Positions 9,676-44,513 of a stretch of 64,000 nt of DNA are shown here, piece after piece. The DNA comes from a virus: IMG/VR virus record IMGVR_UViG_3300021364_000006; one strand, 5' to 3'. The notes under the pieces were generated by a model. That model had not been told where the DNA came from, made no database searches, and was given only the letters and a program-made list of their open reading frames with translations. The translations under genes were made by a program, and so were the position numbers. Within the stretch, counting starts at the first letter, position 1, and each line of letters starts with the position of its first letter.

Positions 9676-9713
9676 ATTATAGCACGAAAAAAAGCGGGTG
9701 CCAGACCCGCTTT
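9676..9713 (-). terminator. Intrinsic terminator overlapping a promoter (CTGGCA-N17-TATAAT)
   Basis: AAAGCGGGT-CTGGC-ACCCGCTTTTTTT hairpin plus U-tract. Confidence 0.7.
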
Positions 9714-9733: not shown

Positions 9734-9826
9734 TCATCTGTACAAAAATTTCATTTCGCCGTAGATGAGAGAAAGGAATGCTACTGAACCAAGGGATACG
9801 ATCCCAGCGATTTGTAGTGCTTCCAT
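9734..9826 (-). CDS. 30-aa single-TM peptide (not in ORF track)
   Basis: MEALQIAGIVSLGSVAFLSLIYGEMKFLYR*, immediately after the DUF4278-type gene. Confidence 0.55.
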   Translation of the reverse strand: MEALQIAGIVSLGSVAFLSLIYGEMKFLYR

Positions 9827-9831
9827 GACGA

Positions 9832-9996
9832 TCACTTAGCGTAAGAGTGACCGCGATAGCAGAAAGTTCCATGAACTTCTTCACCACCTTGCTGACACTC
9901 ATACTTGACACCACGATAGGTGGTCATAGCAATCTGAGCATCGTGTAGTGCAGCTGCTTTCTGGATCTGCTTCTTGATGATAGTAAGTGTGTTCAT
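9832..9996 (-). CDS. DUF4278-type (YRG-motif) small protein (not in ORF track)
   Basis: MNTLTIIKKQIQKAAALHDAQIAMTTYRGVKYECQQGGEEVHGTFCYRGHSYAK*; two YRG motifs; AGGAG SD. Confidence 0.8.
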   Translation of the reverse strand: MNTLTIIKKQIQKAAALHDAQIAMTTYRGVKYECQQGGEEVHGTFCYRGHSYAK

Positions 9997-10054
9997 TAGT
10001 TTACTCCTAAAAGAATGGAAAATTAACCTTCTCTCGTTTCCGAGGATCCGTTTT

Positions 10055-10234
10055 CCGTTCCTTCAGTCGTTTGCGTCCCATTGACATTCGGGTACAGATT
10101 CCCTTACGGTTTCTACAAGTTCTACAACCACTGCTGGTGGTAGATTCTTATTTTTGCTGATCCTTAACATTAAGGATTCAGCATCCTGACATGTCAACGT
10201 TGAATACAGAAGTAATTCAAACATGGGATGAACG
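10055..10234 (-). ncRNA. Glutamine-II (Downstream-peptide)-like riboswitch aptamer 2, P2 loop replaced by an ORF
   Basis: CGUUCAUCCCAU...AUGGGACGCAAACGACUGAAGGAACGG; P1 CGUUC/GAACG, P2 UCCCAU/AUGGGA; upstream of a DUF4278-type gene. Confidence 0.7.
10063..10224 (-). CDS. 53-aa two-Cys protein nested in riboswitch aptamer 2 (not in ORF track)
   Basis: MFELLLYSTLTCQDAESLMLRISKNKNLPPAVVVELVETVRESVPECQWDAND*; GGAG 10 nt upstream. Confidence 0.7.
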   Translation of the reverse strand: MFELLLYSTLTCQDAESLMLRISKNKNLPPAVVVELVETVRESVPECQWDAND

Positions 10235-10236
10235 CT

Positions 10237-10468
10237 CCGTTCCGCGACTTACTTGCGTCCTCAGGTAAATGTACCATTGCATTCCCCTTCAACTTTTGAT
10301 TTGAAATACTGGATGAGATTCCATTTCGATCGTTGATCGATGTCGTCCCTCATCTGTGTCTCAACTCTGAGTTGTAGAAACCTTTCACAAGACATATGCC
10401 ACCCATAGGGTGACGGATCGTGATGGGCTAAGGTGAAAGCCAATAGTAGAGATACCATTGGATGAACG
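10237..10468 (-). ncRNA. Glutamine-II (Downstream-peptide)-like riboswitch aptamer 1, P2 loop replaced by an ORF
   Basis: CGUUCAUCC...GGACGCAAGUAAGUCGCGGAACGG; begins about 7 nt after the -10 box. Confidence 0.7.
10261..10458 (-). CDS. 65-aa two-Cys protein nested in riboswitch aptamer 1
   Basis: ATG lies 1 nt after CGTTCATCC; TGA directly abuts GGACGCA; hydrophobic N-terminus. Confidence 0.7.
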   Translation of the reverse strand: MVSLLLAFTLAHHDPSPYGWHMSCERFLQLRVETQMRDDIDQRSKWNLIQYFKSKVEGECNGTFT

Positions 10469-10475
10469 TATGGTC

Positions 10476-10504
10476 ATTATAGACCGCATCACATATTTAG
10501 TCAA
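10476..10504 (-). promoter_or_regulatory. Sigma70-type promoter (embedded CTAAATA late-type motif)
   Basis: TTGACT-N17-TATAAT. Confidence 0.8.
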
Positions 10505-10511
10505 GTACTTT

Positions 10512-10527
10512 TGTATCTTGTGATACA
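10512..10527. promoter_or_regulatory. NtcA-binding box
   Basis: TGTA-N8-TACA (tGTAtcttgtgaTACa), just upstream of the -35 box. Confidence 0.65.
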
Positions 10528-19949: not shown

Positions 19950-20060
19950 AAAGTAAGACCATCAGGGAAATGGTGGAGTTACTATTTCCTCGCACCCTTA
20001 GCGAGGATATGAAAGACGTTTTTATACTCCCTAGAGGTCTTGGTTTACGGGGAGTTGAAC
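19950..20060 (-). ncRNA. Structured psbA 5' leader (PhotoRC-II-like RNA motif)
   Basis: CUCCC...GACCUCUAGGGAG...GUCUUUCAUAUCCUCGC-UAAGGGU-GCGAGGA hairpins directly upstream of phage psbA. Confidence 0.55.
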
Positions 20061-20097
20061 AAAAAATTAAGAACGTTACGTTTCTTAACCTGTTGAC

Positions 20098-44193: not shown

Positions 44194-44265
44194 AGCCCCC
44201 AGTCGGATTTGAACCAACGACCTACGCTTTACAAAAGCGTTGCTCTACCGCTGAGCTATAGAGGC
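44194..44265 (-). tRNA. tRNA-Thr(TGT)
   Basis: GCCTCTATAGCTCAGCGGTAGAGC..ACGCT-TTTGTAA-AGCGT..GGTTCAAATCC. Confidence 0.9.
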
Positions 44266-44272
44266 GATGGCA

Positions 44273-44344
44273 CTCCCAAGGCTGGATTTGAACCAGCGAC
44301 CAGCCGATTAACAGTCGGCGGCTCTGCCACTGAGCTACTTGGGA
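44273..44344 (-). tRNA. tRNA-Asn(GTT)
   Basis: TCCCAAG acceptor, GCCGA-CTGTTAA-TCGGC, GGTTCAAATCC. Confidence 0.9.
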
Positions 44345-44365
44345 ATAAGTGTTCCCCGAAGGGAA

Positions 44366-44437
44366 AGCGGAGTATCGGAATCGAACCGACGACATCTAAC
44401 TTGGAAGGATAGCGTTCTACCGCTGAACTAACTCCGC
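44366..44437 (-). tRNA. tRNA-Gly(TCC)
   Basis: GCGGAGT acceptor, CTATC-CTTCCAA-GTTAG, GGTTCGATTCC. Confidence 0.9.
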
Positions 44438-44441
44438 GAGG

Positions 44442-44513
44442 CAGGCCCACCAGGAATCGAACCTGGGACAACCGCTTAGAAGGCGGGGGTTATATCCGCT
44501 TAACTATGGGCCC
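44442..44513 (-). tRNA. tRNA-Arg(TCT)
   Basis: GGGCCCA acceptor, CCGC-CTTCTAA-GCGG, GGTTCGATTCC. Confidence 0.9.

What the first reader, a model, noticed from the sequence alone, without database searches (positions are those of the whole stretch)
9832..10527. Tandem glutamine-II-like riboswitch aptamers, each with an entire protein gene inside its P2 loop
Seen on the minus strand: promoter, then AUA-CGUUCAUCC-A-[AUG, 65 codons, UGA]-GGACGCAAGUAAGUCGCGGAACG-GAG-CGUUCAUCCC-[AUG...]-GGGACGCAAACGACUGAAGGAACG, a hairpin leader, AGGAG and a YRG-motif gene. Established: glutamine-II/Downstream-peptide aptamers follow the pattern CGUUCAyCC-short loop-GGrCGCA...GGAACG and precede DUF4278 genes in marine cyanobacteria. 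Here the normally tiny P2 loop is replaced by about 200 nt and about 140 nt of coding sequence, and the flanking pairing is kept. In aptamer 2, UCCCAU/AUGGGA buries the nested start codon. In aptamer 1, UCC/GGA plus GGUA/UACC bracket the start and stop codons. The last codons of ORF2 (W-D-A-N-D-stop = UGG GAC GCA AAC GAC UGA) are the aptamer core itself. Inference: ligand-dependent folding would circularise and sequester each nested ORF, while ribosomes translating them would unfold the aptamers. This is a gene-within-a-riboswitch circuit coupling nitrogen status to three or four small proteins. Covariance-model scans would probably miss it because of the long inserts.
Basis: partly seen in the sequence, partly recalled or inferred. 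Interest (0 to 1): 0.93.

Follow-up and report, generated by a model that had tools for sequence, protein, structure and literature searches.

The report
Genes inside a nested glutamine riboswitch
A marine cyanophage starts a small operon with two glutamine-sensor RNA cores folded one inside the other, and each core has a real small protein gene in a hairpin loop, so sensing the host's nitrogen state and translating these genes must compete on the same RNA.

Summary
Both aptamer-like halves, both nested ORFs and the YRG gene lie where stated. The stems enclosing the ORFs covary across 140-230 nt inserts in 309 phage elements, gene-free alleles exist, and both ORFs are under purifying selection (dN/dS 0.11 and 0.19). 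The topology is not tandem glutamine-II. Compensatory alleles show nested pairing: the first CGUUC pairs with the last GAACG, the middle halves form a permuted inner core, and a shared helix with an E-loop joins the two. The outer core is glutamine-I (glnA) type: a gene-free allele whose core differs from the window's by one base scores 43.6 bits on RF01739 (cut-off 35), in that register. A covarying helix hides the YRG gene's ribosome-binding site when the aptamer is unfolded, which suggests a glutamine ON switch; a conserved NtcA box precedes the promoter. Ligand binding and repression of the nested genes are inferred, not shown. Weinberg 2010 aligned such elements as serial glnA pairs; I found no description of nesting or of enclosed genes, but could not read Ames and Breaker 2011. 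This scan found the same architecture earlier in other cyanophage genomes.

The parts
10513..10526 (-). NtcA-type box GTA-N8-TAC, centred about 50 nt upstream of the predicted start
   Evidence: Strict match in 217 of 291 distinct upstream regions, mostly 51-53 nt before C1; shuffles give a mean of 7 and a maximum of 15
10476..10504 (-). Sigma-70 type promoter; transcript predicted to start 1-2 nt before the first aptamer base
   Evidence: 11 of 12 consensus matches; -10 box in 250 of 281 homologs and -35 box in 184
10464..10468 (-). Outer P1, 5' strand (CGUUC); pairs with 10060-10056
   Evidence: Compensatory allele L390 (CGUUU with AAACG) and S-CREM1 G19:C41 long-range pair; RF01739 alignment of gene-free alleles
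10460..10462 (-). Outer P2, 5' strand (UCC); pairs with GGA at 10260-10258 across ORF1
   Evidence: In gene-carrying alleles stem position 3 is paired in 63 of 65 distinct stems (CG 49, UA 12; shuffle mean 52)
10261..10458 (-). ORF1, 65 aa, phrog_6471; hydrophobic N-terminus and a two-cysteine helical hairpin; lies in the outer P2 loop
   Evidence: dN/dS 0.11, pN below pS in all 72 homologs
10250..10260 (-). Outer P2 3' strand, CGCA ligand-contact strand and AGUA half of the E-loop
   Evidence: Matches the conserved positions of PMC6698751 and the RF01739 consensus
10245..10249 (-). Shared P3, 5' strand (AGUCG); pairs with CGACU at 10069-10065
   Evidence: 75 of 75 cells paired over 15 distinct linker combinations, with changes on both sides at three of five pairs
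10230..10242 (-). Inner, circularly permuted P1 hairpin GAACG-GAG-CGUUC; the loop supplies a GGAG before ORF2
   Evidence: 8 alleles carry CAACG with CGUUG here; GGAG in 153 of 161 short-linker alleles with ORF2 and 0 of 19 without
10223..10228 (-). Inner P2, 5' strand (UCCCAU), including the first two bases of the ORF2 start codon; pairs with 10081-10076
   Evidence: Positions 3-5 paired in 109, 106 and 100 of 109 distinct stems, shuffle means 99.6, 80.5 and 69.0
10063..10224 (-). ORF2, 53 aa, phrog_504; distant paralog of ORF1; lies in the inner P2 loop, its last codons run through the inner core and its stop codon lies in the P3/E-loop strand
   Evidence: dN/dS 0.19; hhalign against the ORF1 family 97.2%, E 3e-11; stop codon at the same structural position in 226 of 239 alleles
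10055..10081 (-). Inner P2 3' strand, CGCA, P3 3' strand, GAA half of the E-loop, outer P1 3' strand and G41
10004..10018 (-). Anti-aptamer strand and SD of the YRG gene; pairs with 10066-10055 in the ligand-free fold
   Evidence: 11 of 12 pairs, probability about 1.0 in the window's ensemble; CUAAA pairs with UUUAG in 32 alleles and never with UUCAG
10033..10044 (-). Optional GAAA-capped hairpin inside the loop of the SD-hiding helix
   Evidence: Present in some alleles with changing stems, absent in others
9832..9996 (-). ORF3, 54 aa, two YRG motifs, phrog_545, weak DUF4278 match; main output gene
   Evidence: PF14105 E 0.0018, 19.1 bits, below the cut-off of 25.3; YRG in 214 of the 223 distinct downstream regions with a called GGAG and start
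9734..9826 (-). ORF4, 30-aa hydrophobic peptide directly after ORF3
   Evidence: Read from the sequence; conservation not tested
9691..9713 (-). Intrinsic terminator closing the operon
   Evidence: 9-bp stem with a U tail

Best explanation
This is one interlocked double glutamine riboswitch, not two in series. SHOWN by covariation: an outer three-way junction of glutamine-I type (P1 from the first CGUUC and the last GAACG, P2 around ORF1, E-loop AGUA/GAA, P3), whose P3 leads into a second, circularly permuted core (P1 hairpin GAACG-GAG-CGUUC, P2 around ORF2, no E-loop). SHOWN by selection: both enclosed ORFs code for protein. INFERRED (about 75%): the outer core, and probably the inner one, binds L-glutamine, because the ligand-contacting bases of the solved structures are present. 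INFERRED (about 65%): it is a co-transcriptional ON switch for the YRG/DUF4278-like gene; without ligand the P3/E-loop/P1 3' strand pairs over that gene's SD, and with ligand it stays in the aptamer. INFERRED (about 45%): the bound fold ties up the start regions of ORF1 and ORF2, so these are read when glutamine is low and the YRG gene when it is high. Ribosomes on either nested ORF would melt the aptamer, and ribosomes stopping at the ORF2 UGA would also melt the SD-hiding helix. An NtcA box adds transcriptional nitrogen control of unknown sign.
For: Nested register: all 8 alleles with CAACG in the first 3' half have CGUUG in the second 5' half; they fall in about five ORF2 groups, most closer to non-variant alleles than to the other variants. 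L390 compensates outer and inner P1 at once, and S-CREM1 has G19 in the first core with C41 after the last. RF01739 aligns gene-free alleles in this register at 41.1 and 43.6 bits; the L184 core differs from the spliced window by one base. RNAalifold and constrained folding prefer the nested P1 pairing (51 of 51 gene-free alleles, median 2.6 kcal/mol). P2 covariation across the inserts, P3 covariation, dN/dS. On transcripts ending just after the aptamer the nested fold is within 0.0-0.3 kcal/mol (class medians) of the minimum, 1.2 for the window; with the SD region present the SD-hiding helix is in the minimum fold of 39 of 46 gene-carrying alleles. Host glutamine riboswitches are ON switches for gifB and DUF4278 genes by freeing the RBS (PMC6212724).
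Against: No binding, probing or translation data. The inner core lacks the E-loop. On the full-length window transcript the nested fold costs 15 kcal/mol against the SD-hiding fold in the nearest-neighbour model, so switching must be kinetic or ribosome-assisted. The outer P2 of the window has only 3 contiguous pairs. ORF1 has a leader of about 11 nt and no SD. Long-linker alleles with ORF2 mostly lack GGAG in the loop (3 of 78). Counts are of sequences, not independent events, and my pattern search required the core bases and the first two P2 pairs.
Confidence: 0.62

Rival explanations
1. The nested riboswitch is real and controls only the downstream YRG gene. The P2 loops are tolerant insertion sites in which genes ride on a strong promoter without regulatory coupling.
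For: 51 of 309 elements carry no gene and all four empty/full combinations occur. A 190-aa gene, annotated as a homing endonuclease in phage Sf-CH5, sits in a third loop in some alleles. Distant members of the ORF2 family occur in ordinary operons without the RNA.
Against: Starts and stops are fixed to the stems (ORF2 start 9-11 nt from C1 in 237 of 239 alleles; stop in the P3/E-loop strand in 226), a GGAG is kept in the inner loop only when ORF2 is present in short-linker alleles, and one paralogous family fills both loops.
Confidence: 0.2
2. The fold is as described, but only one core binds glutamine, or the RNA senses another ligand; the inner core is a scaffold.
For: The inner core has AA in place of AGUA and a 2-nt junction instead of GAAG; no such permuted core has been tested to my knowledge.
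Against: Both cores keep C1, G2, G18, C39, G40 and the C19:G41 pair (partly forced by the search pattern, but also seen in protein-selected loci). The glutamine-II site binds without an E-loop and as two separate strands (PMC6698751).
Confidence: 0.13
3. Two independent aptamers in series, each with its own P1.
For: The two cores are nearly identical, so the serial pairing is possible in 299 of 309 elements; for the full window transcript the two constrained folds differ by only 2.5 kcal/mol.
Against: All 8 informative P1 alleles would have two mismatched pairs in series and none when nested; S-CREM1 would lose both long-range pairs; P3 covaries between the two linkers.
Confidence: 0.05

Closest known systems
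Glutamine-I riboswitch (glnA RNA, Rfam RF01739), e.g. the Synechocystis gifB leader (PMC6212724), and the 'tandem glnA' entries of Weinberg 2010 (PMC2864571)
   Same: Three-way junction with P1 CGUUC/GAACG, P2, E-loop and P3; ligand-contact bases; an alternative helix over the RBS of a DUF4278-like gene; an NtcA site at the promoter. Weinberg's glnA alignment already holds gene-free alleles of this element, and the published 99-nt glnA hit in phage S-CREM1 spans the whole double element.
   Different: P3 leads into a second, permuted core; both P2 loops can hold whole genes; the long-range pair is usually C19:G41 as in type II; published alignments treat the two cores as serial units.
Glutamine-II riboswitch (Downstream-peptide, RF01704; structure in PMC6698751)
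   Same: CGUUCAUCC...GGACGCA and GGAACGG core identical to the Prochlorococcus RS01 example; C19:G41; YRG/DUF4278-type output gene; strand exchange between two units was seen in the crystal.
   Different: No local helix between the linker and the bases after GGAACG; scores stay under the cut-off; a helix shared between the two units takes its place.
Group I introns with homing endonuclease ORFs in peripheral loops (from my own knowledge, a lead only)
   Same: A structured RNA whose conserved core folds across a whole gene, with the ORF ending in core sequence.
   Different: No splicing elements were seen; this is a ligand-sensor core, and the usual passengers are small two-cysteine proteins.

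Membership tests
Glutamine-I (RF01739) | Covariance score above the gathering cut-off | tested here: met
   By proxy only: gene-free alleles L184 and L282 score 43.6 and 41.1 bits against 35 in the nested register; the L184 core differs from the window's by one base. The native window gives no hit; S-CREM1 gave 33.5 and 20.4 bits in serial alignments.
Glutamine-I (RF01739) | Three-way junction P1-P2-P3 with E-loop AGUA/GAA (outer core) | tested here: met
   P1, P2 and P3 covariation; the second linker ends in GAA in 262 and AAA in 47 of 309 elements
Glutamine-I (RF01739) | E-loop in the inner core | tested here: not met
   Inner junction has CGCA-AA and a 2-nt return strand
Glutamine-I (RF01739) | Long-range Watson-Crick pair (G23-C60 type) | tested here: met
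   Present as C19:G41, flipped relative to type I; G:C in S-CREM1
Glutamine-I (RF01739) | Selective binding of L-glutamine | not testable with these tools
   Needs in-line probing or ITC
Glutamine-I (RF01739) | ON control of a downstream gifB/DUF4278-type gene by freeing its RBS | tested here: inconclusive
   SD-hiding helix predicted and covarying at one pair; DUF4278 match below cut-off; no expression test
Glutamine-II (RF01704) | Local helix between the linker and the strand after GGAACG (pseudoknot architecture) | tested here: not met
   Broken in the cmscan alignments; the linkers pair with each other instead
Glutamine-II (RF01704) | Covariance score above the gathering cut-off of 33 | tested here: not met
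   15-32.1 bits for gene-free alleles
Glutamine-II (RF01704) | Ligand-contact bases C1, G2, G18, C39, G40 and the C19:G41 pair | tested here: met
   All present in both cores of the window
Tandem riboswitch (independent aptamers in series) | Each aptamer pairs within itself | tested here: not met
   All informative alleles are nested

The most novel reading that the evidence does not exclude
A two-site, possibly cooperative glutamine sensor with pseudo-twofold symmetry that switches reciprocally between genes inside its own loops (read at low glutamine) and genes behind it (read at high glutamine), with ribosomes on the inner genes feeding back on the sensor, in hundreds of cyanophages.
Probability: 0.35. 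Interest if true: 0.92.

Novelty: new variant of a known kind. Interest (0 to 1): 0.78.

Why it matters
It would revise a published riboswitch arrangement: elements filed as tandem glnA aptamers look like one interlocked structure with a natural circularly permuted core. It shows that a riboswitch can fold across whole translated genes, which hides it from covariance scans and suggests other families are under-counted. It also gives a direct handle on how cyanophages read host nitrogen status: the NtcA box, the sensor and a DUF4278-like gene sit in one short operon of cultured phages such as Syn9, S-SM1 and ACG-2014f (Syn9 and ACG-2014f lack a strict box), with natural gene-free and gene-carrying alleles as controls.

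Tried and rejected
Rfam on the native locus: no glutamine hit. A spliced sequence could not be given to cmscan, so natural gene-free alleles stood in; nhmmer with a profile of 51 such alleles scored the spliced window at 62 bits against 31 and 14 for native fragments. My own nested covariance model found only the middle junction in the window (21 bits). Serial pairing and glutamine-II membership were rejected. A first hhalign with shallow alignments missed the ORF1/ORF2 relation; deeper ones found it. Fold searches and the protein atlas gave no function for either nested protein. The idea that this protein family occurs only inside the riboswitch was rejected: three of four distant members looked up lie in ordinary operons. 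In 185,579 prokaryote genomes the element-like hits lie on phage-like contigs in bins (L659 gave no protein match and was not resolved). RNA-seq: contigs of relatives from four studies cover the operon, but contigs show neither strand nor level, so this is not counted as evidence. Ames and Breaker 2011 and Ren 2015 were not held, so I cannot exclude that they tested or described such a construct. The window's own assembly is not held. One folding script timed out.

Full report
Setting. The window comes from a T4-like marine cyanophage: talC lies just upstream, a PhotoRC-II RNA and four tRNAs are elsewhere in it, and the region matches 423 phage records, nearly all Synechococcus or Prochlorococcus phages. 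The finding is a short minus-strand operon: promoter at 10504-10476, ORF1, ORF2, a YRG gene, a 30-codon ORF and a terminator at 9713-9691.

Observation. Each half-motif occurs twice in the window, both times here. Rfam finds no glutamine aptamer at the native locus. In loci fetched by protein similarity alone, the RNA halves flank 78 of 78 ORF2 homologs and 78 of 78 ORF1 homologs, so the link between gene and RNA is not a product of my motif search.

Genes in the loops. I parsed 309 distinct complete elements: 124 carry a long insert in both loops, 115 only in the second, 19 only in the first and 51 in neither. In gene-carrying alleles the stems still pair. My parser required the first two pairs, so only later positions count: outer stem position 3 is paired in 63 of 65 distinct stems (CG 49, UA 12; shuffle mean 52), and inner stem positions 3-5 in 109, 106 and 100 of 109 (shuffle means 99.6, 80.5 and 69.0). 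These are counts of sequences, not of independent events. Both ORFs are under purifying selection, with median dN/dS 0.11 and 0.19 and third codon positions most variable. The ORF2 start lies 9-11 nt after C1 in 237 of 239 alleles, and its stop codon falls in the P3/E-loop strand in 226. The two families share two invariant cysteines about 35 residues apart, a hydrophobic N-terminus and a predicted helical hairpin, and are distant paralogs (hhalign 97.2%, E 3e-11). No function could be assigned. A membrane-anchored or exported disulfide-bonded protein is my guess from the anatomy.

Topology. The two cores are nearly identical, so most alleles allow either serial or nested pairing. The variants decide. 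Eight alleles have CAACG in the first 3' half, and all eight have CGUUG in the second 5' half, while the first 5' half and last 3' half match each other. One of them (L390) also changes the outer pair to U-A. S-CREM1 has G19 in the first core and C41 after the last. The eight fall into about five ORF2 groups, most closer to non-variant alleles than to the other variants. The two linkers pair with each other: 75 of 75 cells in the short type, with two-sided changes, and a longer type that swaps U-A for A-U. AGUA from the first linker and GAA from the second form the E-loop of glutamine-I. Rfam's own RF01739 model aligns gene-free alleles this way, with the inner core as a 38-41 nt insert in P3, at 41.1 and 43.6 bits against a cut-off of 35; the L184 core differs from the spliced window by one loop base. 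RNAalifold predicts the nested P1 pairings on 15 gene-free alleles, though it does not recover P3, and constrained folding prefers nested in 51 of 51. RF01704 is not reached and its defining local helix is broken. I reached the nested reading (notes, test) before consulting earlier findings.

Expression platform. In the window, 10066-10055 pairs with 10007-10018 in 11 of 12 positions and covers the start of AGGAG, with probability near 1 without ligand. Across alleles the first six pairs are kept in 60-67 of 67, and one pair covaries: CUAAA goes with UUUAG in 32 alleles and never with UUCAG, whereas CUGAA takes either. In S-CREM1 the bases from C41 on are complementary to the SD region (read), as proposed for gifB (PMC6212724). 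On transcripts cut just after the aptamer, the nested fold is at or near the minimum (class medians 0.0-0.3 kcal/mol; 1.2 for the window). Once the SD region is added the gap is 4-8 kcal/mol, and 15 for the window. This fits a decision taken during transcription. The model does not score tertiary contacts, ligand or ribosomes.

Nested genes and the switch. In the bound fold the ORF2 start codon lies in the inner P2, and the G after GGAACG, which begins its GGAG, pairs with C19. That GGAG is present in 153 of 161 short-linker alleles with ORF2 and 0 of 19 without, but in only 3 of 78 long-linker alleles with ORF2. ORF1 starts about 11 nt from the predicted 5' end, next to a 3-bp stem. So ligand should lower translation of the nested genes, and their translation should prevent folding. 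Ribosomes ending at the ORF2 stop would also melt the SD-hiding helix and could couple ORF3 to ORF2. All of this is inference.

Promoter. Following note e1-5659826 I tested the NtcA box at 10526-10513. A strict GTA-N8-TAC is present in 217 of 291 upstream regions, mostly 51-53 nt before C1, against 7 in shuffles. It lies upstream of the -35 box rather than over the -10, where PMC6212724 places repression, so activation at low nitrogen is my weak guess. NtcA sites in cyanophage genomes were noted in general by PMC3037559.

Prior knowledge. [quoted passage not shown] Glutamine riboswitch hits in phages have been reported (PMC9964418, PMC9004378). Searches found no paper on nested cores or enclosed genes, but Ames and Breaker 2011 and Ren 2015 were not available. 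This scan's earlier reports describe the same architecture in other genomes; they are unchecked notes and I count them as leads only.

Verdict. The structure is well supported (about 0.9). It works like a glutamine-I ON switch; the outer core meets the testable membership features of RF01739 by proxy, the inner core does not, and it is not a glutamine-II member. It is a new variant of a known kind. Interest 0.78.

Noticed in passing
L013:490-1062; L014; L283:1270-1842 (phage Sf-CH5): A 190-aa gene, annotated as a homing endonuclease in Sf-CH5, sits in the loop of the inner P1 hairpin, so a third loop can hold a gene. No Pfam hit passed.
   Followed up: partly
L007:1053-1467: The outer P2 loop holds a 408-nt insert with no forward ORF of the usual family; it may carry a reverse-strand gene.
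   Followed up: no
L370:1709-1802 and elsewhere in L370: One contig carries two separate complete double-aptamer elements.
   Followed up: no
L420, after the last GAACG: The 3' end is partly duplicated and followed by another CGUUCAUCCC and a different gene instead of the YRG gene.
   Followed up: no
L697:701-856, L702:701-874, L699:518-679: Distant members of the ORF2 family lie in ordinary small-gene operons without the RNA, a possible source of the nested genes.
   Followed up: partly
L661 (Nonlabens xiamenensis assembly, 188 kb contig) and L617 (Synechococcus bin, 194 kb contig): These contigs carry the junction motif and genes matching the window's phage genes, so they look like cyanophage genomes inside bacterial assemblies.
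   Followed up: partly
   Followed up: no
window 19974-20069 (-) and 44194-44513 (-): PhotoRC-II RNA (75 bits) and a cluster of four tRNAs.
   Followed up: no
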